A stretch of DNA of 64,000 nt from Shigella phage Tf. This document shows, piece after piece, positions 15,698 through 42,510 of this stretch (position 1 is the first letter of the stretch; each line of letters opens with the position of its first letter). Made by a program: the position numbers and the translations under genes. The stretch lies in the sequence record OR980947. The stretch is one strand, 5' to 3'. The notes beneath the pieces are model-generated. The model searched no databases and was not told the DNA's origin. It saw only the letters and a program-made list of their open reading frames with translations.

Positions 15698-15855
15698 CCT
15701 AATAAGATTTAAAGCCAAGCTTCATTCGGATGTTGCTTTGGTATACCGCGTGTATTGTTGTACACATTGATAAAACACCTAGTAGGTGTCACGGAGAAGA
15801 GATAATATCAAGCTCTCCAAAGGTTCTAGTCACCGGATTAAACAAGACTATGCAA

Positions 15856-15876
15856 AGACCTAAATAGGTCTTTTTA
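15856..15876 (+). terminator. terminator-like hairpin inside tRNA cluster
   Basis: agacctaaataggtct + ttttt. Confidence 0.45.
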
Positions 15877-15954
15877 GAGGGCTTCTAAGGTTATTACAGC
15901 TTGTTGTGGAACCTTGTTGCTTAGGTTCTTAGAAGTTCTCTAAAAAGATTTAAT

Positions 15955-16029
15955 GGGAGATTGATGGTAATTGGTAAACCTATCTCGCTTAGAACGAGAT
16001 GTTTGAGGGTTCGAATCCCTTGTCTCCTA
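15955..16029 (+). tRNA. tRNA with Leu-type anticodon TAG but short variable region
   Basis: acceptor gggagat/gtctcct, anticodon stem tctcg/cgaga loop ctTAGaa, T-loop GGTTCGAATCC, A73, CCA encoded; only 5 nt between anticodon and T arms. Confidence 0.5.
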
Positions 16030-16039
16030 CCAAATTAAT

Positions 16040-16112
16040 GCAGGTGTAGCAAAATGGTTATGCGGCTGACTCTTAATCAGTAAGACGATGGGTTCAATTC
16101 CCTCCACCTGTA
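16040..16112 (+). tRNA. tRNA-Lys (anticodon CTT)
   Basis: paralogue of the TTT tRNA at 14806; anticodon stem ctga/tcag loop ctCTTaa; T-loop GGTTCAATTCC; CCA encoded. Confidence 0.6.
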
Positions 16113-16121
16113 CCAGACATT

Positions 16122-16194
16122 GGGGATGTAGTTTACATGGTTAAAACATAAGTTTTGCAAACTTAAGTACAGGGTTCAATTCCCTGCTTCTCCA
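16122..16194 (+). tRNA. tRNA-Ala (anticodon TGC)
   Basis: D-stem gttt/aaac, anticodon stem taagt/actta loop ttTGCaa, T-stem cagg/cctg, CCA encoded. Confidence 0.7.
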
Positions 16195-16203
16195 CCAATT
16201 AGT

Positions 16204-16275
16204 GCATCCATAGTTTAAACGGGAAAATTACAGTCTTCCAAACTGAGGTTGAGGGTTCGATTCCCTCTGGATGCT
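16204..16275 (+). tRNA. tRNA-Gly (anticodon TCC)
   Basis: perfect acceptor gcatcca/tggatgc, anticodon loop ctTCCaa, T-loop GGTTCGATTCC, CCA encoded. Confidence 0.75.
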
Positions 16276-16284
16276 CCAAACAAT

Positions 16285-16358
16285 GCTGCTTTCGTATAAT
16301 TGGCTATTACACATCCCTTGTAAGGATGGAAATGCAGGTTCGAGTCCTGTGAGCAGCA
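16285..16358 (+). tRNA. tRNA-Thr (anticodon TGT)
   Basis: acceptor gctgctt/gagcagc, anticodon stem catcc/ggatg loop ctTGTaa, T-loop GGTTCGAGTCC, CCA encoded. Confidence 0.75.
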
Positions 16359-16456
16359 CCAATTCAGAGGTCAAGTGAAAGACCGCTGGTGTCAACTGAA
16401 GACCGTAACAAATTCCACGGAGTTGAGTTAGCGGCACAACTTCAGACCTCTTTCAC

Positions 16457-16528
16457 ACTCGCTTAGTTTATATGGTAAAACATCACCCTTACAAGATGAA
16501 GAAAAAGGTTCAAGTCCTTTAGTGAGTA
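16457..16528 (+). tRNA. tRNA-Val (anticodon TAC)
   Basis: acceptor actcgct/agtgagt, anticodon loop ctTACaa, T-loop GGTTCAAGTCC, CCA encoded. Confidence 0.7.
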
Positions 16529-16532
16529 CCAT

Positions 16533-16607
16533 GTTCCAGTATCCCAATTGGCAGAGGATGCAAGCTCAAACCTTGTATTAGTGACGGTTCGAATCCGTCT
16601 TGGAACA
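16533..16607 (+). tRNA. tRNA with Leu-type anticodon CAA but short variable region
   Basis: acceptor gttccag/ttggaac, Leu-like D-loop aattggcaga, anticodon stem gcaag/cttgt loop ctCAAac, T-loop GGTTCGAATCC, A73, CCA encoded. Confidence 0.55.
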
Positions 16608-16629
16608 CCAATTTTAAGAGGCTATTTAG

Positions 16630-17187
16630 ATGAGATACTTAAAGTATGCTTCATGGATTTTCTTAGCTTTGTTAGAGCCATTCGCAGCAATCTTAGCAGT
16701 TATCTTAGCACCTTTTGTAGTTCCATTCTATAGTGAGAAGAAAGGACATCTACCTTTCGGATTCAGATGGATGGAGACATATGACAACCCAATTGATGGT
16801 GATGAAGGTCACGTTAAAAGATGGGCTAAGATTAGAAAGATTGGTAATCTTGGTGTCTATTTGCAGAGAGTTGGATGGCTCTGGAGAAACAAAGCTTATA
16901 ACTTCTCTTACCATGTGTTAGGAAGAGACGTAAAAGATGTTACTAAGTGGAAAGGTAATATCAACGTGAGTTCTGACCCTGAAGATAATCAGACAGGTTA
17001 TCTCCTAATGTGGAACAGTAATGCTTGGGGATTATTCGCTTTTGTCCCATCAATTAAAATCTTTGGTAAACAATTCTACTGGAGAATTTATGTTGGATGG
17101 AAACTAAAAAGTGTTGTCCCAGAAGAAAGAGCATTCTCAAGGGAAAGAGTTATGTTGGCATTCTTTATTCATCCACTGAGAAAGTAA
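16630..17187 (+). CDS. hypothetical membrane protein encoded inside the tRNA cluster
   Basis: ORF 185 aa; N-terminal hydrophobic segment (IFLALLEPFAAILAVILAPFVVPF); Trp/Tyr-rich. Confidence 0.45.
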   Translation: MRYLKYASWIFLALLEPFAAILAVILAPFVVPFYSEKKGHLPFGFRWMETYDNPIDGDEGHVKRWAKIRKIGNLGVYLQRVGWLWRNKAYNFSYHVLGRDVKDVTKWKGNINVSSDPEDNQTGYLLMWNSNAWGLFAFVPSIKIFGKQFYWRIYVGWKLKSVVPEERAFSRERVMLAFFIHPLRK

Positions 17188-17195
17188 AGATTTAA

Positions 17196-17268
17196 AGGGG
17201 ATTAGTTTACAAGGTTAAAACCTCGGTCTTTGAAATCGAAGAAGTTGGTTCAATTCCAACATCCCCCG
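17196..17268 (+). tRNA. tRNA-Gln (anticodon TTG)
   Basis: anticodon stem tcggt/atcga loop ctTTGaa, T-stem gttgg/ccaac, CCA encoded. Confidence 0.7.
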
Positions 17269-17273
17269 CCAAT

Positions 17274-17349
17274 GCTCCATTACTCCAATTGGCAGAGAGG
17301 CCAGACTTAAAATCTGTGTTATGTATCGGTTCGAATCCGATATGGAGTA
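17274..17349 (+). tRNA. tRNA with Leu-type anticodon TAA but short variable region
   Basis: paralogue of 16533-16607 (shared aattggcaga D-loop); anticodon stem caga/tctg loop ctTAAaa; T-loop GGTTCGAATCC; A73; CCA encoded. Confidence 0.5.
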
Positions 17350-17357
17350 CCAAATTT

Positions 17358-17430
17358 AGCGGTATAGCATAACTGGCAATGCAGCAGTCTCTGAAGCTGT
17401 CTTATTAAGGTTCAAATCCTTATGCCGCTG
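17358..17430 (+). tRNA. tRNA-Gln (anticodon CTG)
   Basis: D-stem gcat/atgc, anticodon stem gcagt/gctgt loop ctCTGaa, T-loop GGTTCAAATCC, CCA encoded. Confidence 0.7.
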
Positions 17431-17434
17431 CCAC

Positions 17435-17464
17435 TTCTAAGGGTTCTTACGAGAGTCTTTAAAT
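17435..17464 (+). promoter_or_regulatory. conserved motif cttctaagGGTTCTTACGAGagTCTTTAAAtg (copy 3)
   Basis: just upstream of tRNA-His. Confidence 0.35.
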
Positions 17465-17537
17465 GTGGCCTTATCATAAATGGTAATGACCCATGCTGTG
17501 AACATGGTCTATACGGGTTCAAATCCCGTAGGTCACC
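17465..17537 (+). tRNA. tRNA-His (anticodon GTG)
   Basis: D-stem tcat/atga, anticodon stem ccatg/catgg loop ctGTGaa, T-loop GGTTCAAATCC, C73, CCA encoded. Confidence 0.75.
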
Positions 17538-17545
17538 CCAATTTA

Positions 17546-17620
17546 TAGTCCAAGTAGCTTATATGGTTAAAGCGCGTGTCTGAAAAACATGAGAAGAGGG
17601 TTCAAATCCCACTGGACTAC
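17546..17620 (+). tRNA. tRNA-Phe (anticodon GAA)
   Basis: perfect acceptor tagtcca/tggacta, anticodon stem cgtgt/acatg loop ctGAAaa, T-loop GGTTCAAATCC; D region slightly irregular. Confidence 0.6.
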
Positions 17621-17638
17621 CAATTTCAAAGGTGCTTA

Positions 17639-18373
17639 ATGAAAGAGATGACAGGACAAGGTAAGGAGATTTTTAATCTCTTAAAAACCGGTAAAGGGTT
17701 CTCTAACCCGCTTATTACTGGTGCAGCAGTTCTCGGTGGAACCGTAGCTGCTTCTACATCACTTGTAAGCTCTATTAGTTCTGTAACAGACCCTACAATG
17801 AAGGAGAAACTTGTTGCTGCTGGACTTACAACAGCCCTTCTAAACAGCTTTACAACAAGCCTGACAAGTACTACAGCAACTACTAAGACCCTAACAGACT
17901 ATGGTCAAAAGTCTATTGATGAGTTTTCATCACGTATGCAGGTAGCAAAGGGATACTCCAATGTTATGGGTGCAGCAGGAGAACAAGTTGGTTGTACACC
18001 ATTCAGTGGTATCATGGGTGTTGCTACAGAGTATGGTCAAAAAGCTATTGACATGATGAACAGTGCACTAGATAGTGTTAACGATGTATTAAGTGACTTA
18101 CAAGACGCTATTGACAAGGGTCTTGATACTGTTTCTGATTTAGCTAACCAAGCTGTCAGTAAGATTAATGAAGGTATCTCGAAGATTACAGCTTATGCAG
18201 ATGAAGTTGTGCAGATGATTGAAGAAGAAGCTGCCCTTATTGCAGAGTACCTTAAAACGAATATCAATGGGTTCTTAGCAGGTATCTTACCAGACTGGTT
18301 TGATGATGCTTGTAAAACTGGTGTAATTGACACTATTGCAACACCAGAAATGAAGAACGCATTACAGAAATAA
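17639..18373 (+). CDS. hypothetical protein, Ser/Thr/Ala-rich (start trimmed to avoid tRNA-Phe)
   Basis: ORF-track ORF 17576-18373 overlaps tRNA-Phe; in-frame ATG at 17639 preceded by aaaggtg. Confidence 0.5.
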   Translation: MKEMTGQGKEIFNLLKTGKGFSNPLITGAAVLGGTVAASTSLVSSISSVTDPTMKEKLVAAGLTTALLNSFTTSLTSTTATTKTLTDYGQKSIDEFSSRMQVAKGYSNVMGAAGEQVGCTPFSGIMGVATEYGQKAIDMMNSALDSVNDVLSDLQDAIDKGLDTVSDLANQAVSKINEGISKITAYADEVVQMIEEEAALIAEYLKTNINGFLAGILPDWFDDACKTGVIDTIATPEMKNALQK

Positions 18374-18375
18374 AT

Positions 18376-18465
18376 GGAAGATTAACCCTAAAAGGTAAGG
18401 GAGCAGTTTGCTAAACTGCCAGTAGCTGAGAAATCGGTGTACCAGTTCAAGTCTGGTATCTTCCT
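18376..18465 (+). tRNA. tRNA-Ser (anticodon GCT), long variable arm
   Basis: 90 nt; acceptor ggaagat/atcttcc, anticodon stem gcagt/actgc loop ttGCTaa, long variable arm, T-arm accag-TTCAAGT-ctggt, CCA encoded. Confidence 0.7.
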
Positions 18466-18472
18466 CCAATTT

Positions 18473-18545
18473 GAATCCGTGACAGAAACGGCTATGTGCC
18501 TGTCTGCAAAACAGGTTTATAAGGGTTCGAGTCCCTTCGGATTCT
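18473..18545 (+). tRNA. tRNA-Cys (anticodon GCA)
   Basis: acceptor gaatccg/cggattc, anticodon stem cctgt/acagg loop ctGCAaa, T-arm aaggg-TTCGAGT-ccctt, CCA encoded. Confidence 0.7.
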
Positions 18546-18593
18546 CCAAGTTATTTTACTCTCTCTCAATTAAAATAATAATAATGCCCTGCT

Positions 18594-37082: not shown

Positions 37083-37937
37083 ATGTTTCAGAAAATTGAT
37101 GATGTCTACTATAAGACTCTTGACGAAAGAACTGTAACACAGTTTAAAGATAAATTTATCTATACAAGTATCTTGAAAGCAATCACTGATGAATTACAAA
37201 CTCTAGAAGATGTTTGCTGGCAGATGCACACAGAGAGAAATATCAGGACGTCAGTAGGCCAACAACTTGATAACATTGGCTCACTGATTAAAGTTCCTAG
37301 ACCTTTAGGTGCAGATGATGAAACATATAGGGCTATGCTTTATATTCAAATCTTCCTAAGACGCTCTGACACTACTCCAACATTCTTGCAAAAAGCAATT
37401 ATGACACTATATGGTGCAACTTTCTCTCAGATTTTTGAGCATATTACTCCTAAGACTGGTGGTATCGTTATCCGTATTAACACCAGAAAGAGCGTTCTTG
37501 ATGCTGCATATACACTGTCAAAGATTTCTGCAACAACTACTGGTTCTGCTGTTATCTTAAGAGATGTTACTTTAAATGGAACTGCTTGGACACCTGTAGA
37601 GGTTGCTGATTCAGCACTTGCCATTGTTGATGATAAAGAGAACTGGTTTGTAACTGATGCTAACAGAGGTCTGGTAACAAATAACACTGGTGGCTCTCTG
37701 GAGTCCAACCTAGTAGGGAGTCTTACAGATGCTGGTGTTATTGATGGTTACTTTAAGGTTGACAGAACAGCAAACTCACAGAGTGATGATTATATGACTG
37801 TAGATAGGTCCAATAATAGTGGCTATTTCATCGTTGGTAAAGAAGCTATTGCAGGTGGTGCATATGGAATCATGGCTGAGGTTGCACAAATTGTCAAAGG
37901 CAGAAAAGATAAATCACAACAAGAAGGAAATTCTTAA
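37083..37937 (+). CDS. baseplate/tail fibre attachment protein (putative)
   Basis: 284 aa ORF between J-like gene and tail fibres. Confidence 0.4.
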
Positions 37938-38239
37938 TGGCAGTTTTAAATTGGTCTACAAATGAAGTAGATACTGATGGTAACCAGTTAAAAGTTTTAC
38001 CACCACCGGAAGTTCAAGAGACAGGTCTTTTAAAGGGTGAACCTATGGGTAGACAGTGGTTCAACTATATTATCAACTACCTGCTTAATAAAGTAAACGG
38101 CACTGTTGGTGAAGTTCGCTCATATGCAACTCAGCAACCAGATTTAGTAGCCAATGGCTGGAAACTAATTAAGTCTGAGACAGGGACTGCAACAACAAGT
38201 ACAAAGAACCTTTACACATATGAATATGTAGGAGCTTAA
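37937..38239 (+). CDS. hypothetical tail protein (100 aa)
   Basis: ORF with overlapping stop/start. Confidence 0.4.
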
Positions 38240-38241
38240 TA

Positions 38242-39417
38242 ATGGCAGTCGGTGAAATTCAAATTAGTGCCTTGCCACAAGCGGCATTACCAGTTGATTT
38301 AAGTGATATCTTCCATCTTAAGCAAGGTGTTGAAGATAAAAGATGTACACTTGAACATTTGTTAGCACCTCACGCATCTTTAAGGAATAACCCCCATGGC
38401 GTAACCAAATCGCAAGTGGGTCTTGATAATGTTATTAACTCTCTTCAATTAGTTGCAGATAATAACTTGTCAGATATTGTAAATGTTGCTGAGGCAAGAG
38501 CAAATCTACAAATTATGTCGTCAGAAGAAGTGAATAGTTTAATTCAGCGACATATTGACGACAAAAGTAACCCACACAATACAACGAAAGCACAGGTCGG
38601 TTTAAGTAATGTTCAGAACTGGACAACATCCAATCTGTACAATGAAGATGCTGATAAATATGCTACCGCGAAAGCAGTTAATAATTTATACAAAGCTATC
38701 CAAGCGTCATATCCAGTAGGGACTATTCATCTATCTGTTAACTCTGCTAACCCATCCACTTACTTACTTTGTGGAGGTACTTGGGAGTTAGTCTCTAAAG
38801 GTAGAGCACTAGTTGGTTATGATACAGATTCTAGACCTGTTGGTTCAACGTTTGGTTCTCAGACTGTAGCATTAACAAATAATAATTTACCAGCACATAC
38901 ACACTCTATCTATTTAACAGGTGGTGGTCACACACACTCTGCAAGCGTATCTATCTCTAGTTTTGATTATGGTTCAAAAAGTACATCAACTTTTGATTAC
39001 GGTACAAAAACGACTAATAGTGCTGGTGCTCATACTCACACGTTTAGTGGCACAACAAGTAATGCTGGTAACCACAACCACAGAGTACCTATGAGGGGTA
39101 ATGATAGAGGTGGTACAAATGCTATTACTGCATCTGCTGATGCTGGTGTTGGTAATGCTATGTATACTGATTTAGCTGGTGCTCACACCCATAGCTTCTC
39201 AGGCACAACTGCATCATCTGGTGCTCATAGTCATACTGTTGCAATTGGTGCTCATAGTCACACTGTCAATATTGGTTCACACAGTCATACTGGCACTGTT
39301 ACTGTTTCTAGCTCTGAGCATACACACTCAGGGACATCTGGTTCTGTTGGTGGTGGTCAAGCTTTCAGTGTTGAGCAACCATCTTTTGTAGTATATGTAT
39401 GGCAGAGAACAGCTTAA
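38242..39417 (+). CDS. tail fibre protein with collar-like domain and His-x-His repeats
   Basis: collar-like segment (CGGTWELVSKGRALVGY...NNNLPAHTHS) and repeated HTH/HSH/HNH motifs; C-terminus ...AFSVEQ...VWQRTA shared with next gene. Confidence 0.65.
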   Translation: MAVGEIQISALPQAALPVDLSDIFHLKQGVEDKRCTLEHLLAPHASLRNNPHGVTKSQVGLDNVINSLQLVADNNLSDIVNVAEARANLQIMSSEEVNSLIQRHIDDKSNPHNTTKAQVGLSNVQNWTTSNLYNEDADKYATAKAVNNLYKAIQASYPVGTIHLSVNSANPSTYLLCGGTWELVSKGRALVGYDTDSRPVGSTFGSQTVALTNNNLPAHTHSIYLTGGGHTHSASVSISSFDYGSKSTSTFDYGTKTTNSAGAHTHTFSGTTSNAGNHNHRVPMRGNDRGGTNAITASADAGVGNAMYTDLAGAHTHSFSGTTASSGAHSHTVAIGAHSHTVNIGSHSHTGTVTVSSSEHTHSGTSGSVGGGQAFSVEQPSFVVYVWQRTA

Positions 39418-39427
39418 TTTCTTTACA

Positions 39428-39447
39428 GGGGCTTTGTAGCCCCTTTT
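39428..39447 (+). terminator. rho-independent terminator between the two tail fibre genes
   Basis: ggggctttgtagcccc + tttt. Confidence 0.65.
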
Positions 39448-39463
39448 AAGAGGAAAATTTATA

Positions 39464-41824
39464 ATGGCAGATTACAAATTGAGTCAATTAAACTCAATCG
39501 ACACAATTCGTTCAGAAGACCTATTGCACATCAGAGTTAAGAAAAGACCTGAAATGTTGGGTGACGAAGACCGTCGAATGACCTATCAAGACTTCTTAGC
39601 ATCTTTTAAACTAGAAAGATTTGTTCAGATTGCTGGTAGCACTATGACGGGTGACTTAGGAATTGTTAAGTTACTTTATGGTGGTAAGGCAGTCTTTGAC
39701 CCAACAGGCTCTTCTGAGATTAATATTGGTGATGTTTTAAAGACTTTTAAAATCAACGCAAATGGTCTTAAGTTAACCGTTGCAGATGCTTCAAGGTCTG
39801 CAACTGTTTATCATACTCTTAATAAACCAAGCCCTAATGAACTTGGGATGAGAACCAATGAAGAGAACGATGCAAGGTATGCAAAACTATCTGCAAATAA
39901 CATCTTTACATCCCAACAAACTATCCAAGCAAATGGTGAAGCTATTAGGTTAAAAAACTCTTCTGAGAACTCACCGTTGTATATCAGAGGTCAGGATAGT
40001 GCTGGTGAGAATAGATGGTATATCGGTAATGGTTCAGGGGGTGATAATGTTACTATCCGCAACCACAAGACAGACTGTGAAGTTATTCTATCTAGTGTCG
40101 TGGCTATCAATAAAACATTAAGCATCACGGGTCAAGTCAAACCTTCTGACTTCTCTAACTTAGATGCTAGATATTTCACTCAGACAGTCGCTAATCAGAG
40201 ATTTGCACAGTTAGCTGGCAATAACACCTTTACAGGTGCTAACACATTTAGGACTATGAGTGTTATTTCAAATGCTGCTGCCATCACACTGCAATGTGCA
40301 TCAGCAAACGAATCCCTGTATCTACTTGCAAAAGATTATGAAGGTGGAAACTTATGGTATCTTGGTAAAGATAGTTCAGGTGCTGGTGTAACTATCTACA
40401 ACTATACCACTAACACCTCTTTGTTCTTAGATGCTGCTGGGGTATCAGCAAATAAAAATGTCAGAATCACTGGACAAGTTCAACCTTCAGATTGGACTAA
40501 CATTGACTCTAGATACATTCCAGTAGCTACTTTGAGCAATCTTGCTAAAATTAATGTGTCTAACACTTTCACAAATGTGCAGACTATTGTATCAAATAAT
40601 GAAGGTGTAGTATTAAAGAACTTAACACAGGGACAGCCGCAATATATCCGTGGTGTTGATACTGCGAACGTATCTAGGTGGTGGGTAGGTGTAGGTGATG
40701 CAAATTCTACTGATGTAGCCTTAAACAACAGCTTCTCTGGGACTCAAATTACTCTTATGACTTCAGCGATTAAGGCTAATAAGAATCTAACCATTACTGG
40801 TCAAGTACAACCTTCTGATTGGTCTAACTTAGATGCTAGATATTTCTTGAAAACAAAACTATTAAACCAATCTTTAATGACAAGGACAGCTAATAGACTG
40901 GATGACCCATCATCATTCAACAAAGATTATTCAGGGTTTGTAAGAAATAATAACATAGAGCAGGGTCTGAAAGATTTAGCCATCCATGTAGCACATGCTG
41001 CTGGTATTGCTCATGCCAGAGGTATTGCTTTTGAATATGGGTCTACAGGTCTTAATGTCTTCACATATGCCTATGGCAAAAATGGTGACTATGCCGGAGA
41101 AGCACAGATTTATACAACTGCTTTTAAACCAACCCCTTCAGAAATTGGTGCATACACTAAAGCTGAAACTGACCAGAAGATTGCAGAAGCGATTAGTGAC
41201 TCTACAGACCTTAATAAAATCTATCCAGTAGGTATTGTAACGTGGTTTAACAGTAATGTTAACCCTAATACAGCACTTCCTGGTCTAACTTGGACGTACC
41301 TGAATAATGGTGTTGGTAGAACTATTAGAATTGCAGCAGCAAACGGTTCAGATGTTGCTACAACTGGTGGTTCAGACTCTGTAACGTTGTCTGTTGGTAA
41401 CTTACCTTCACACACGCATAGTTTCTCTGGAACGACTTCTTGGTTTGACTATGGAACTAAGTACACAGACGGTCAGGGTGCTCACGACCATGACAGAGGT
41501 AACATGGAAATCTCTGGTGACTTTGGTTTCTTCAGAAGTGATGCAAATAACTTTTATACAGCAAGTGGGGCATTCGCTATCTCAGGTTCACAAGCCTCTA
41601 GGGGTTTTACTGGCTCTAAGTTCACTTATGGTACACCTGTCAACTTCTACGCATCAAGAACTTGGACAGGGAGAACAAGCTGGGTAGGTGCTCATGCACA
41701 TGGTGTAGGTATTGGTGCTCACAACCATACGGTAAGTGGTAACACAGGTGTCACAGGTTCTGGTTCAGCATTTAGTGTCACTAACCAATTCTATAAGTTA
41801 ATGGCTTGGGTAAGAACTGCTTAA
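39464..41824 (+). CDS. long tail fibre protein with internal repeats and His-x-His motifs
   Basis: 786 aa; three copies of ...ITGQV(K/Q)PSD(F/W)(S/T)N(L/I)D(A/S)RY...; C-terminal HTHS, HDHD, HAHG, HNHT motifs; conserved C-terminal ...AFSV...WVRTA. Confidence 0.7.
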   Translation: MADYKLSQLNSIDTIRSEDLLHIRVKKRPEMLGDEDRRMTYQDFLASFKLERFVQIAGSTMTGDLGIVKLLYGGKAVFDPTGSSEINIGDVLKTFKINANGLKLTVADASRSATVYHTLNKPSPNELGMRTNEENDARYAKLSANNIFTSQQTIQANGEAIRLKNSSENSPLYIRGQDSAGENRWYIGNGSGGDNVTIRNHKTDCEVILSSVVAINKTLSITGQVKPSDFSNLDARYFTQTVANQRFAQLAGNNTFTGANTFRTMSVISNAAAITLQCASANESLYLLAKDYEGGNLWYLGKDSSGAGVTIYNYTTNTSLFLDAAGVSANKNVRITGQVQPSDWTNIDSRYIPVATLSNLAKINVSNTFTNVQTIVSNNEGVVLKNLTQGQPQYIRGVDTANVSRWWVGVGDANSTDVALNNSFSGTQITLMTSAIKANKNLTITGQVQPSDWSNLDARYFLKTKLLNQSLMTRTANRLDDPSSFNKDYSGFVRNNNIEQGLKDLAIHVAHAAGIAHARGIAFEYGSTGLNVFTYAYGKNGDYAGEAQIYTTAFKPTPSEIGAYTKAETDQKIAEAISDSTDLNKIYPVGIVTWFNSNVNPNTALPGLTWTYLNNGVGRTIRIAAANGSDVATTGGSDSVTLSVGNLPSHTHSFSGTTSWFDYGTKYTDGQGAHDHDRGNMEISGDFGFFRSDANNFYTASGAFAISGSQASRGFTGSKFTYGTPVNFYASRTWTGRTSWVGAHAHGVGIGAHNHTVSGNTGVTGSGSAFSVTNQFYKLMAWVRTA

Positions 41825-41903: not shown

Positions 41904-42098
41904 ATGCCTACAATCCTAGCAATTCTTCTAAAAAATCTAGGTAGCTTCTTCTGGAAACTCATTTTATCCCTTCTAAGTGAATACATGATTGAGAAAGTGT
42001 TCTTTAAGCTTGCAAGATATCTTGCGAGTAAAACAGACACACCTATTGATGATGAGTTCGTAGATAACTTAGAAAAAGCTTTTAAGGGGGAGAAATAA
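41904..42098 (+). CDS. small membrane protein (holin-like, putative)
   Basis: 64 aa with hydrophobic N-terminal segment and charged C-terminus. Confidence 0.35.
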   Translation: MPTILAILLKNLGSFFWKLILSLLSEYMIEKVFFKLARYLASKTDTPIDDEFVDNLEKAFKGEK

Positions 42099-42470
42099 AT
42101 GAAGTGGCTAGAGGAAGCTTTTAAAAATAATATTGGTGCAATTGTAGTTGGTATTTTTAGTGTTATCGGAATGTATACCACGATGCAAGTGTCAAGTGGT
42201 AAACAAGAGGTGTCTGTCAAAACAAAGTTACAACAGTTGGATAATTACACAAGTAGTAACTATTCAGCTATTCGTGATTTACAGTCTGACATTAGACTTA
42301 TTCAGTTAGGGATGGAGAACCAGAAAGTTCAGTTAGAGAATGTTAAGGGTGAGAACGCAAAACTTACTAAAACCCTTGATAAATTTTCTGATAGTGTGAA
42401 CAATCTGGCTCAATCAGTATCAGCCCTCCAAGCTATTACTGAAAAGAACACAAAGAATACTGAAAAATAA
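42099..42470 (+). CDS. membrane-anchored coiled-coil protein (spanin-like or lysis-associated, putative)
   Basis: N-terminal TM (IGAIVVGIFSVIGMY) followed by Gln/Leu-rich coiled coil; start abuts previous stop. Confidence 0.35.
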   Translation: MKWLEEAFKNNIGAIVVGIFSVIGMYTTMQVSSGKQEVSVKTKLQQLDNYTSSNYSAIRDLQSDIRLIQLGMENQKVQLENVKGENAKLTKTLDKFSDSVNNLAQSVSALQAITEKNTKNTEK

Positions 42471-42478
42471 AATTTTAA

Positions 42479-42510
42479 GGCTCCCGTAAAAAGGAGCCTT
42501 TTTTGTTTTT
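42479..42510. terminator. bidirectional terminator at convergence of structural (+) and metabolism (-) blocks
   Basis: ggctcccgtaaaaaggagcc flanked by T-run on plus strand and A-run upstream. Confidence 0.7.

What the first reader, a model, noticed from the sequence alone, without database searches (positions are those of the whole stretch)
38242..41824. Tail fibres with His-x-His motif clusters, internal domain triplication and a shared C-terminal module
Both fibre genes end with clusters of HTH/HSH/HAH/HNH motifs in Gly/Ser/Thr-rich context and the same C-terminal ...AFSV...W(Q/V)RTA tail. His-x-His repeats are known to coordinate metal ions in the receptor-binding tips of T4-type long tail fibres. 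The larger gene also contains three copies of an ITGQV(K/Q)PSD(F/W)xN(L/I)DxRY segment. The shared 3' module and internal repeats are likely recombination substrates for host-range switching.
Basis: partly seen in the sequence, partly recalled or inferred. Interest (0 to 1): 0.5.

Follow-up and report, generated by a model that had tools for sequence, protein, structure and literature searches.

The report
Felix O1-type phage short and long tail fibres
These are the short and long tail-fibre genes of a Felix O1-like phage, both ending in a T4 gp37-type needle tip that is probably held together by metal ions bound to His-x-His motifs; this architecture was already published for the genus, so the finding is correct but ordinary.

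Summary
Two + strand genes, 38242-39417 (391 aa) and 39464-41824 (786 aa), carry 9 and 4 His-x-His motifs; shuffled sequences give about 1.5 and 0.2. The larger gene has three ~110-aa repeats, and both end in ...AFSV...W(Q/V)RTA.

The window is a Felixounavirus. The 786-aa protein is 100% identical to the tail fibre of Shigella phage Tf. The genes are the orthologues of Bas63 gp26 (short fibre) and gp27 (long fibre), whose T4 gp37-like tips with HxH motifs were described by cryo-EM in 2025.

The short fibre matches the crystal structure of the T4 gp37 tip (2XGF, E 2e-26). All seven iron-binding HxH motifs of T4 are in register. The shared C-terminal tail corresponds to the segment that closes the collar domain, and it does not overlap the intergenic hairpin.

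The two genes are old paralogues: 32% amino-acid identity and a longest shared DNA word of 12 nt. They are therefore not recombination substrates for each other. The long-fibre gene is nevertheless a clear mosaic across phages. Variable cassettes are bounded by the conserved ITGQV..PSD..N.D.RY linkers, the collar and the tail.

Local variants: 9 HxH motifs in the short fibre against 7 in Bas63, and 4 in the long fibre against 6. Metal binding is inferred, not shown. Interest is low.

The parts
37937..38239 (+). 100-aa baseplate protein, orthologue of Bas63 gp25 (long-fibre platform, T4 gp9-like according to the paper). This is context, not part of the finding.
   Evidence: 85% identical to Bas63 gp25 and in the same gene order. 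The role is taken from PMC12609058.
38242..38670 (+). Short tail fibre (STF, gene A) aa 1-143: N-terminal baseplate-binding part and shaft, with two NPHxxTKxQVGLxNVxN motifs at aa 50-66 and 110-126
   Evidence: ORF. 75% identical overall to Bas63 gp26. N-terminal bins are 80-97% conserved among 48 homologues.
38671..38895 (+). STF aa 144-218: first part of the collar domain (fold of T4 gp10/gp12/gp37 D10)
   Evidence: Pfam Gp10_C E 2.9e-18. The family profile hits the T4 gp10 C-terminal domain 2FKK at E 1.2e-12. AF2 pLDDT is 83-92. Foldseek hits 2FKK with prob 1.00, 33% identity.
38896..39081 (+). STF aa 219-280: outbound strand of the needle, with HxH at 219, 230, 264 and 278 plus two (F)DYGxK decapeptide units
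   Evidence: The direct repeat at 38956/38986 is.
39082..39183 (+). STF aa 281-314: head (distal tip) domain, the hypervariable presumed receptor-contact region
   Evidence: It aligns with the T4 gp37 head, between H929-H931 and H966. Median identity among 48 homologues falls to 7-40% here. AF2 pLDDT is below 50.
39184..39327 (+). STF aa 315-362: return strand of the needle, with HxH at 315, 329, 338, 347 and 360. It includes a 27-nt x 3.2 tandem array (GxHxHTVxI) at 39208-39292.
   Evidence: In the AF2 monomer, strands 222-241 and 347-365 form a long hairpin.
39328..39417 (+). STF aa 363-391 plus stop: Gly/Ser linker and the collar-closing tail ...AFSVEQPSFVVYVWQRTA
   Evidence: It aligns with the end of T4 gp37; residues 1010-1026 of gp37 belong to collar domain D10 (PMC6957217; alignment). 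W387 and R389 are invariant in 66 homologues. AF2 pLDDT is 89.
39428..39447 (+). Intergenic hairpin GGGGCT-ttgt-AGCCCC followed by TTTT, with a ribosome-binding site for gene B just downstream
   Evidence: Sequence. The homologous position in phage wV8 is annotated as a Rho-independent terminator. It lies 11 nt after the stop of gene A, so the coding tail does not overlap it.
39464..39880 (+). Long tail fibre (LTF, gene B) aa 1-139: conserved N-terminal baseplate-binding part and first shaft segment, ending in ...KPSPNELGMRTNEENDARY
   Evidence: Median identity of 95% over 119 homologue clusters. 61% identical overall to Bas63 gp27.
39881..40174 (+). LTF repeat R1 (aa 140-237): variable beta-domain cassette plus conserved linker ITGQVKPSDFSNLDARY (aa 221-237, nt 40124-40174)
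   Evidence: Pfam gp37_trimer. AF2 pLDDT is 69-87 and the domain is all-beta. Core identity to homologues is multimodal, 34-96%.
40175..40516 (+). LTF repeat R2 (aa 238-351) with linker ITGQVQPSDWTNIDSRY (aa 335-351, nt 40466-40516)
   Evidence: The family profile hits the T7 gp17 C-terminal fragment 4A0U/4A0T at E about 3e-6 over aa 278-345.
40517..40843 (+). LTF repeat R3 (aa 352-460) with linker ITGQVQPSDWSNLDARY (aa 444-460, nt 40793-40843)
   Evidence: The best Pfam gp37_trimer stretch covers aa 381-465. Also.
40844..41131 (+). LTF aa 461-556: a different, highly variable domain related to part of the phage Mu tail fibre S
   Evidence: The family profile hits 8JU3 (Mu tail fibre S) at E 6e-12 over aa 477-577. 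Identity to homologues ranges from 16 to 89%.
41132..41410 (+). LTF aa 557-649: conserved linker (KPTPSEIGAYTKAETDQKI) and first part of the collar domain
   Evidence: Pfam Gp10_C over aa 584-677 scores 25.7 bits, E 2.5e-5, just under the curated cut-off of 27. 92-99% identical in all 119 clusters. 90-100% nucleotide identity in 5 phages.
41411..41734 (+). LTF aa 650-757: short needle (HxH at 650 and 674 outbound, 744 and 753 returning) enclosing an enlarged head-like insert at aa 677-741 (nt 41492-41686)
   Evidence: The family profile hits 2XGF at E 7.7e-21. Alignment. Tip-type survey. AF2 pLDDT is below 50 here, so there is no structural support.
41735..41824 (+). LTF aa 758-786 plus stop: Gly/Ser linker and collar-closing tail ...AFSVTNQFYKLMAWVRTA
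   Evidence: aa 764-786 are invariant in 48 aligned homologues.

Best explanation
The two genes encode the short (391 aa) and long (786 aa) tail fibres of a Felixounavirus, that is, a Felix O1-like myophage close to Shigella phage Tf.

Both fibres are predicted homotrimers that end in the same type of receptor-binding tip as the T4 long-fibre protein gp37. The tip has three elements:
- a collar domain;
- a long needle inserted into the collar. The chain runs out to a small distal head domain and comes back, which gives a six-stranded beta barrel in the trimer;
- a last ~20-residue tail (...AFSV...W(Q/V)RTA) that returns to the collar and closes it.

Each HxH motif from the three chains would supply six histidines to one octahedral metal ion on the fibre axis. 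The metal is iron in T4. That predicts up to 9 such sites in the short fibre and 4 in the long fibre. The sites staple the needle together. The variable head between them contacts the receptor, which is lipopolysaccharide for this genus.

The long fibre also has a shaft of three gp34/gp37-like beta domains. Each closes with a conserved ITGQV..PSD..N.D.RY linker.

Across related phages the conserved segments (N-terminus, linkers, collar, tail) flank cassettes that have been exchanged by recombination. This is how specificity diversifies.

Shown here: homology, motif register, repeat structure and mosaicism. Inferred: trimer state, metal binding and receptor.
For: Identity of the genes:
- 238 phage records match the region, nearly all of them Felixounavirus phages of Escherichia, Salmonella and Shigella.
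- B is 100% identical to 'tail fiber protein [Shigella phage Tf]'.
- A is 97-99% identical to the fibres of wV8, HY02 and E9.
- Gene order and protein identities match Bas63 gp23-gp27: 95.5, 84.2, 85.0, 75.0 and 61.2%.
- The cryo-EM study of Bas63 describes gp26 as the short fibre and gp27 as the long fibre. Each has a gp37-like collar, needle and head tip with HxH motifs. It also describes gp34-like beta-helix repeats in the long fibre (PMC12609058).

Homology to the solved T4 tip:
- A aa 145-362 matches 2XGF at E 1.8e-26, and the STF family profile at E 4e-28.
- B matches at E 7.9e-5, and the LTF family profile at E 7.7e-21.

Register of the motifs:
- T4 spacings are 883/915/929 outbound and 966/980/989/998 returning, that is, gaps of 32 and 14, then 14, 9 and 9.
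- A has gaps of 34 and 14, then 14, 9 and 9, plus one extra motif on each strand at the collar end.

T4 background:
- In T4 these motifs bind seven iron atoms, and H929A and H931A abolish plaque formation.
- D10 (the collar) is residues 811-881 plus 1010-1026, with D11 (the needle) inserted into it (PMC6957217).

Collar: Pfam Gp10_C E 2.9e-18. Foldseek hits 2FKK with prob 1.00.

Out-and-back topology:
- The AF2 monomer of A pairs strands 222-241 with 347-365.
- The number of outbound FDYGxK units plus one equals the number of return-strand HxH motifs spaced 9 aa apart in 182 of 193 homologues. The classes seen are (0,1), (1,2), (2,3), (3,4) and (4,5).

Shaft: Pfam gp37_trimer three times, E 4.8e-67. 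The best Foldseek hit of the B model is the T4 gp34 rod (4UXG/5NXH), E 1.2e-4.

Mosaicism:
- Sharp transitions from about 45% to 100% nucleotide identity occur at the linkers.
- The nearest relative differs from block to block.
Against: - No trimer model could be built and no metal can be seen with these tools.
- AF2 monomer models are mediocre: A has mean pLDDT 69.6 and B 49.5. The tip of B is below 50 throughout.
- Foldseek with the monomer models did not retrieve 2XGF. Only the gp10 collar and generic long beta-hairpin proteins were found.
- B lacks the head-proximal HxH pair that is essential in T4 (the equivalents of H929/H931 and H966/H968 read GDFGFF and YASRTW). Its tip may therefore differ structurally from the T4 model.
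- No gp38- or Tfa-like chaperone gene lies next to the fibre genes. The downstream ORFs fall in PHROGs of unknown function.
Confidence: 0.88

Rival explanations
1. The shared C-terminal module is a recently shared or converted DNA segment, and the two fibre genes of one genome recombine through it to swap tips.
For: - Both genes end in the same domain order and the same ...AFSV...W.RTA tail.
- The same tip types occur on either fibre in different phages. T4-like heads are found in the STF-type protein P0024 and in the LTF-type protein P0132. The 'RGxMEI...ASRTW' tip of the window's LTF also occurs in the STF-type protein P0048.
Against: - Only 32% amino-acid identity over 243 aligned positions.
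- The longest exact DNA word shared by the two genes is 12 nt, and the best extended DNA match is 47 nt at 72%. That is far below what homologous recombination needs.
- The tails differ at 9 of the last 20 residues, while each is almost invariant within its own orthologue group.
Confidence: 0.05
2. The HxH clusters are a by-product of a low-complexity Gly/Ser/Thr/His-rich repeat (short tandem duplications). They have no metal-binding role and only the beta-strand periodicity matters.
For: - The region is compositionally biased.
- It contains a 27-nt tandem array of 3.2 copies.
- HxH number varies from 6 to 11 among STF homologues and is 4 or 6 among LTF homologues.
- B has lost two positions that are essential in T4.
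Against: - All seven T4 motifs, which are crystallographically iron-bound, are conserved in register in A.
- H219, H278, H280, H315, H317, H347 and H349 are at least 90% conserved across 66 diverse homologues, although the flanking residues vary.
- Mutating the histidines in T4 is lethal (PMC6957217).
Confidence: 0.05
3. The 391-aa fibre is not a host-range determinant. It would be a secondary fibre analogous to T4 gp12, stowed against the sheath, whose needle serves irreversible anchoring or triggering. Host range would be set by the long fibre alone.
For: - In Bas63 the orthologue is the short fibre. It is bound to wedge 2A, and in the virion its head sits between sheath domains.
- Its collar is the gp10/gp12-type domain.
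Against: - Its head region is hypervariable among close relatives, with median identity of 7-40%. That is the signature of a receptor-contact surface under diversifying selection.
- It is homologous to the T4 long-fibre tip and not to the gp12 receptor-binding domain.
Confidence: 0.15

Closest known systems
Escherichia phage JohannRWettstein (Bas63) short tail fibre gp26 and long tail fibre gp27 (cryo-EM, Sci Adv 2025, PMC12609058)
   Same: - Same gene order: wedge 2, wedge 1, long-fibre platform, STF, LTF, two small ORFs, then td and frd on the other strand.
- 75% (STF) and 61% (LTF) identity.
- Same domain plan: N-terminal baseplate-binding domain, shaft, and a collar/needle/head tip with HxH motifs.
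- The LTF has repeated beta domains separated by conserved linkers.
   Different: - The window's STF has 9 HxH motifs against 7. Bas63 lacks the two distal outbound motifs and has a third (Y)DYG unit instead.
- The window's LTF has 4 against 6. The head-proximal pair is replaced and the head is larger.
- The R1, R3, R4 and tip cassettes are different alleles.
T4 gp37 receptor-binding tip, domains D10 (collar) and D11 (needle and head), PDB 2XGF
   Same: - Significant sequence homology.
- All seven iron-binding HxH motifs are in register in the STF.
- Same tandem GxHxHxVxI nonapeptides and FDYGTK units.
- The C-terminal tail corresponds to D10 residues 1010-1026.
   Different: - Here each whole fibre is one protein of 391 or 786 aa, not the four-protein gp34-gp37 assembly.
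- The STF has two extra HxH motifs at the collar end.
- The LTF lacks the equivalents of H929/H931, H966/H968 and H998/H1000.
- No adjacent gp38-type chaperone gene is present (against for T4).
T4 gp34 rod region (PDB 4UXG/5NXH) and Pfam PF20744 gp37_trimer
   Same: - The three LTF repeats match PF20744 three times, E 4.8e-67.
- The best Foldseek hit of the LTF model is gp34, E 1.2e-4, prob 0.85.
- The Bas63 paper makes the same comparison.
   Different: - Only 14% identity.
- TM-scores are low because a monomer model of a trimeric fibre was used.
T4 gp10/gp12 collar domain (PDB 2FKK; Pfam PF21939 Gp10_C)
   Same: The domain at STF aa 144-218 (Pfam E 2.9e-18; family profile to 2FKK E 1.2e-12; Foldseek prob 1.00, 33% identity).
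   Different: In gp10 the domain carries no long needle insertion.
Lambda side tail fibre Stf, and phage Mu tail fibre S (8JU3)
   Same: - Lambda Stf shares 49% identity with STF aa 230-344, the needle.
- Mu S aligns with LTF aa 477-577, E 6e-12.
   Different: These are local module sharing only. The rest of the proteins are unrelated.

Membership tests
T4 gp37-type receptor-binding tip (collar D10 with inserted needle/head D11) | Significant sequence similarity to the gp37 C-terminal fragment of known structure (2XGF) | tested here: met
   STF E 1.8e-26 and family profile E 4e-28. LTF E 7.9e-5 and family profile E 7.7e-21.
T4 gp37-type receptor-binding tip (collar D10 with inserted needle/head D11) | HxH motifs at the positions of the seven iron sites of gp37 | tested here: met
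   STF: 7 of 7 aligned with identical spacing, plus 2 extra. LTF: only 4 motifs, aligning with T4 883, 915, 980 and 989; the equivalents of 929, 966 and 998 are absent. The feature is therefore fully met for the STF and partly met for the LTF.
T4 gp37-type receptor-binding tip (collar D10 with inserted needle/head D11) | Out-and-back chain topology, with the head at the turn and the C-terminus returning to the collar | tested here: inconclusive
   The STF AF2 monomer shows a long hairpin (222-241 with 347-365) and a confident C-terminal strand with pLDDT 89. The lengths of the outbound and return units co-vary in 182 of 193 homologues. Against that, Foldseek did not recover 2XGF, and the LTF tip model has pLDDT below 50.
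T4 gp37-type receptor-binding tip (collar D10 with inserted needle/head D11) | Homotrimer with octahedral coordination of an axial metal ion by six histidines per site | not testable with these tools
   Only monomer prediction was available and there are no experimental data. This rests on homology and on the Bas63 cryo-EM fit.
T4 gp37-type receptor-binding tip (collar D10 with inserted needle/head D11) | Dependence on dedicated chaperones (gp38 and gp57A in T4) | tested here: inconclusive
   The two ORFs downstream (41904-42098 and 42099-42470) match only PHROGs of unknown function. One is annotated as holin in phage HMD-P10. The rest of the genome was not searched for a gp57A-like gene.
Felixounavirus STF/LTF pair (Bas63 gp26/gp27 orthologues) | Orthology by sequence and conserved position after wedge 2, wedge 1 and the long-fibre platform | tested here: met
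   Identities of 95.5, 84.2, 85.0, 75.0 and 61.2% for gp23 to gp27, in identical order. PHROG 2097 and 4277 tail-fibre families.
Felixounavirus STF/LTF pair (Bas63 gp26/gp27 orthologues) | The LTF shaft is built of repeated beta domains separated by conserved linker motifs | tested here: met
   Three significant repeats, Pfam gp37_trimer three times, and three confident all-beta domains in the AF2 model. The paper counts five beta-helix domains. Only three are detectable as sequence repeats here. The segments at aa 55-139 and 461-570 share only a linker-like motif (z = 8.3).
T4 gp10/gp12 collar domain (Pfam Gp10_C) | Score above the Pfam gathering threshold | tested here: met
   STF scores 67.6 bits against a cut-off of 27. 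LTF scores 25.7 bits, just below the cut-off, but is rescued by its homology to the STF.

The most novel reading that the evidence does not exclude
The window's long-fibre tip belongs to a minority allele class, 20 of 120 homologue clusters. In this class the two head-proximal metal sites, whose histidines are essential in T4, are replaced by aromatic-rich sequence (GDFGFF...YASRTW), and the head grows to about 65 aa. This could be a structurally distinct, metal-poor head fold with its own receptor specificity. In addition, the cassette-like and independently exchangeable shaft domains could themselves be secondary carbohydrate-binding sites rather than inert spacers. That would explain why they vary as sharply as the tip does.
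Probability: 0.2. Interest if true: 0.4.

Novelty: already known. Interest (0 to 1): 0.15.

Why it matters
Tail-fibre tips decide which bacteria a phage can attack. Felix O1-type phages are used in Salmonella and E. coli diagnostics and biocontrol.

This window adds no new principle. The gp37-like HxH needle tips and the repeated shaft domains of Felixounavirus fibres were published in 2025, and the proteins here are 97-100% identical to database entries.

The useful by-products are practical:
- a residue-level map of which segments are conserved joints (N-terminus, three ITGQV...RY linkers, collar, tail) and which are exchangeable cassettes. This is the information needed to design chimeric fibres;
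- the observation that needle length, counted as the number of HxH sites, varies in matched steps on the two strands.

Tried and rejected
- Foldseek of the AF2 monomer of the STF against the PDB did not find 2XGF. It found only the gp10 collar and generic long beta-hairpin proteins such as the lysenin and aerolysin-type pores. This was rejected as uninformative, because an intertwined trimer cannot be matched from a monomer model.
- The AF2 model of the full LTF has mean pLDDT 49.5, and its tip is below 50. It was not used for the tip. Only the three shaft domains (pLDDT 70-90) and the gp34 match were used.
- A PDB sequence search with the LTF tip alone gave only 2XGF at E 0.14, so nothing else known resembles the enlarged head.
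- The 'terminator-overlap artefact' was rejected. The hairpin starts 11 nt after the stop codon, and the tail is conserved as protein.
- Intragenomic recombination between the two genes was rejected (12-nt longest shared word). Between the internal repeats the longest exact matches are 21 nt (R1/R3) and 10 nt, and no copy-number variants were seen.
- The look-up of encoding contigs for the 100%-identical protein found nothing.
- A guessed accession for Bas63 (MZ501111) turned out to be an unrelated Vequintavirus. The correct one, MZ501086, came from the BASEL supplement.
- The original T4 gp37 structure paper (PMC2996694) and the Hyman and van Raaij review (PMC5899708) are not held. The T4 facts are cited from PMC6957217 instead.
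- My recollection that 'His boxes' act as recombination or duplication junctions in T4 gene 37 (Tetart et al., 1996) could not be verified in the library. It is not used as evidence.

Full report
**What is there**

The interval holds two + strand ORFs at exactly the stated coordinates: gene A, 38242-39417 (391 aa), and gene B, 39464-41824 (786 aa). The small ORFs on other frames or on the opposite strand within them are short (53-97 aa) and show no sign of being genes.

1. HxH motifs.
   - A has nine, at aa 219, 230, 264, 278, 315, 329, 338, 347 and 360. B has four, at aa 650, 674, 744 and 753.
   - Residue shuffles give means of 1.5 and 0.23, and never reached the observed counts in 5000 trials.
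2. Triplication.
   - ITGQV(K/Q)PSD(F/W)xN(L/I)DxRY occurs at B aa 221, 335 and 444.
   - It closes three repeats of 98-114 aa that are 36-46% identical, z = 29-40.
3. Shared tail.
   - Both proteins end in ...AFSV...W(Q/V)RTA.
   - This is the end of a longer similarity covering the last ~240 aa: 32% identity, E 6e-19.

**Where the window comes from**

The region matches 238 phage records, nearly all of them Felixounavirus phages of Escherichia, Salmonella and Shigella.
- B is 100% identical to the 'tail fiber protein' of Shigella phage Tf.
- A is 97-99% identical to the fibres of wV8, HY02 and E9.
- In wV8 and Felix O1 the A orthologue has long been annotated 'putative tail fiber protein GP37'.
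- The neighbourhood is the Felixounavirus baseplate and fibre module. It runs: wedge 2 (489 aa), wedge 1 (284 aa), a 100-aa protein, A, B, two small membrane-type ORFs, then td and frd on the other strand.

**Published knowledge**

The cryo-EM study of Bas63 (Sci Adv 2025, PMC12609058) describes exactly this pair.
- gp26 is a 430-Å short tail fibre (STF) and gp27 a 630-Å long tail fibre (LTF).
[quoted passage not shown] - The same paper notes that the tips and, unexpectedly, the LTF repeat domains are highly variable in the genus, without changes in repeat number.

I fetched Bas63 (MZ501086). The window's proteins are its orthologues in identical order. Identities are 95.5% (gp23), 84.2% (gp24), 85.0% (gp25), 75.0% (gp26 against A) and 61.2% (gp27 against B). 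So A is the STF and B is the LTF, and the finding re-discovers a described architecture.

**Independent test of the metal-tip interpretation**

Homology to the solved T4 tip:
- A aa 145-362 matches the crystal structure of the T4 gp37 tip (2XGF) with E 1.8e-26.
- A profile of 66 STF homologues gives E 4e-28, and E 1.2e-12 to the gp10 collar domain.
- B alone gives E 7.9e-5. A profile of 48 LTF homologues gives E 7.7e-21.

Register of the motifs:
- T4 gp37 has HxH at 883, 915 and 929 on the outbound strand and at 966, 980, 989 and 998 on the return strand.
- A reproduces the spacings: gaps of 34 and 14 outbound, then 14, 9 and 9 returning, against 32 and 14, then 14, 9 and 9 in T4.
- A adds one motif on each strand at the collar end (219 and 360). 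It therefore predicts a needle two sites longer than that of T4.

T4 background (PMC6957217):
- These motifs coordinate seven iron atoms, and H929A and H931A abolish plaque formation.
- The needle (D11, residues 882-1009) is an insertion into the collar (D10, residues 811-881 plus 1010-1026).

That last point explains the shared tail. It is the segment that returns to the collar and closes it.
- W387 and R389 of A are invariant across 66 homologues, as are collar residues P171, W181 and G205.
- The last 23 residues of B are invariant in 48 homologues.
- The AF2 model of A is confident there, with pLDDT 89.

The tail is not a terminator artefact. The intergenic hairpin GGGGCT-ttgt-AGCCCC-TTTT (39428-39447) begins 11 nt after the stop of A. 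The homologous position in wV8 is annotated as a terminator.

**Structure prediction**

Only monomers could be predicted.
- For A (mean pLDDT 69.6) the collar is confident. The needle appears as a long hairpin pairing 222-241 with 347-365, and the head (284-307) is unmodelled.
- Foldseek then finds only the gp10 collar (2FKK, prob 1.00) and generic long beta-hairpins, not 2XGF. I treat this as uninformative rather than negative.
- For B (mean pLDDT 49.5) only the three shaft repeats are confident. They are all-beta with pLDDT 70-90. The best PDB match of the model is the T4 gp34 rod (E 1.2e-4, prob 0.85), in agreement with the Bas63 paper.

A sequence-only check of the out-and-back register was possible.
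- I counted the (F/Y)DYGxK decapeptide units on the outbound strand and the HxH motifs spaced 9 aa apart on the return strand.
- The second number equals the first plus one in T4 gp37, both Bas63 fibres, both window fibres, and 182 of 193 homologues. The classes are (0,1), (1,2), (2,3), (3,4) and (4,5).
- This is what two antiparallel strands of matched length require. The sequences are related, so it is supportive and not decisive.

**Recombination claim**

Within this genome the claim fails.
- A and B share no DNA word longer than 12 nt, and their best extended match is 47 nt at 72%.
- The three internal repeats share at most 21 nt (R1/R3), and no repeat-number variants occur among 120 homologue clusters.

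Between phages the idea holds well. Codon-aligned comparison with five relatives shows blocks of 96-100% nucleotide identity abutting blocks of about 45%. The switches fall at the conserved motifs: DARY at aa 135-139, the three ITGQV...RY linkers, the KPTPSEIGAY linker before the collar, and the tail. Different relatives are nearest in different blocks:

| Block of B (aa) | Nearest relative | Identity |
|---|---|---|
| 141-220 | HMD-P10 | mostly 96-100% nt |
| 260-345 | ECOH1, SP22 | ~100% nt |
| 350-556 | NBEco004 | ~90% nt |

Across 119 LTF clusters the pattern is the same.
- The N-terminus, linkers, collar and tail almost all stay at 80% identity or higher.
- The cores of R1, R2 and R4 and the tip are multimodal. 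For R2, 85 clusters are at 40% or below and 13 are at 80% or above.
- Single proteins switch between classes block by block.

Tips also move between fibre types and between phage families.
- A Felixounavirus-type LTF (P0132) carries a needle and head 91% identical to T4 gp37.
- An STF-type protein (P0024) has a T4-like head.
- An STF-type protein (P0048) has the tip type that sits on the LTF in this window.

**Local peculiarities**

- The STF here has 9 HxH motifs, as do 57 of 74 full-length homologues. Bas63 has 7.
- The LTF has 4, as do 20 of 120 clusters; the other 100 have 6.
- In the 4-motif class the head-proximal pair is replaced by GDFGFF and YASRTW, and the segment between the remaining motifs is about 65 aa.
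- Nothing in the PDB resembles this insert by sequence, and it could not be modelled.
- B aa 477-577, just before the collar, is related to part of the phage Mu tail fibre S (8JU3, E 6e-12). B aa 278-345 is weakly related to the T7 gp17 C-terminal fragment.

**Verdict**

The exception is the intragenomic recombination idea.

The feature is a well-understood, already published kind of structure, in a phage whose fibre proteins are already in the databases. Metal binding, trimerisation and the LPS receptor are inferred from homology and the literature and were not shown here. Interest is low.

Noticed in passing
protein P0132 (783-aa Felixounavirus-type long fibre from public assemblies) against L007 (T4 gene 37): Its needle and head segment is 91% identical (88 of 97 aa) to T4 gp37 residues ~898-994, while the rest of the protein is Felixounavirus-type. 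This looks like a recent exchange of the receptor-binding tip between two phage families. The STF-type protein P0024 also has a T4-like head.
   Followed up: partly
protein P0048 (415-aa STF-type homologue) against window 41381-41821: A short-fibre-type protein carries the 'RGxMEIxGxF...ASRTWxGxTS' tip type that in this window sits on the long fibre (34% identity over 207 columns). So the same tip architecture occurs on either fibre gene in different phages.
   Followed up: partly
window 40892-41194 (LTF aa 477-577) and 40295-40498 (aa 278-345): With the LTF family profile, the domain before the collar matches the phage Mu tail fibre S (PDB 8JU3, E 6e-12). Part of repeat R2 matches the T7 gp17 C-terminal fragment (4A0U/4A0T, E about 3e-6).
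   Followed up: no
window 41904-42098 and 42099-42470: Two small + strand ORFs lie directly after the fibre genes: 64 aa, hydrophobic, and 123 aa with an N-terminal membrane segment and a coiled-coil-like tail. They match only PHROGs of unknown function. The second is annotated as holin in phage HMD-P10. No gp38/Tfa-like fibre chaperone gene is adjacent.
   Followed up: partly
window 42477-42500: A GC-rich hairpin flanked by A-runs and T-runs reads as a terminator on both strands. It lies between the convergent fibre/small-ORF block and the td-frd genes.
   Followed up: no
window 13703-18548: A cluster of 23 tRNA genes on the + strand, including tRNA-His(GTG) at 17465-17540. This is typical of Felix O1-like genomes.
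   Followed up: no
window 39208-39292: A 27-nt tandem array (3.2 copies, 73% matches) encodes the GxHxHTVxI nonapeptides. T4 gp37 has the same three units, so the array is ancient rather than a recent duplication. The number of such units nevertheless varies (1 to 5) among homologues, in step with the FDYGxK units on the other strand.
   Followed up: yes
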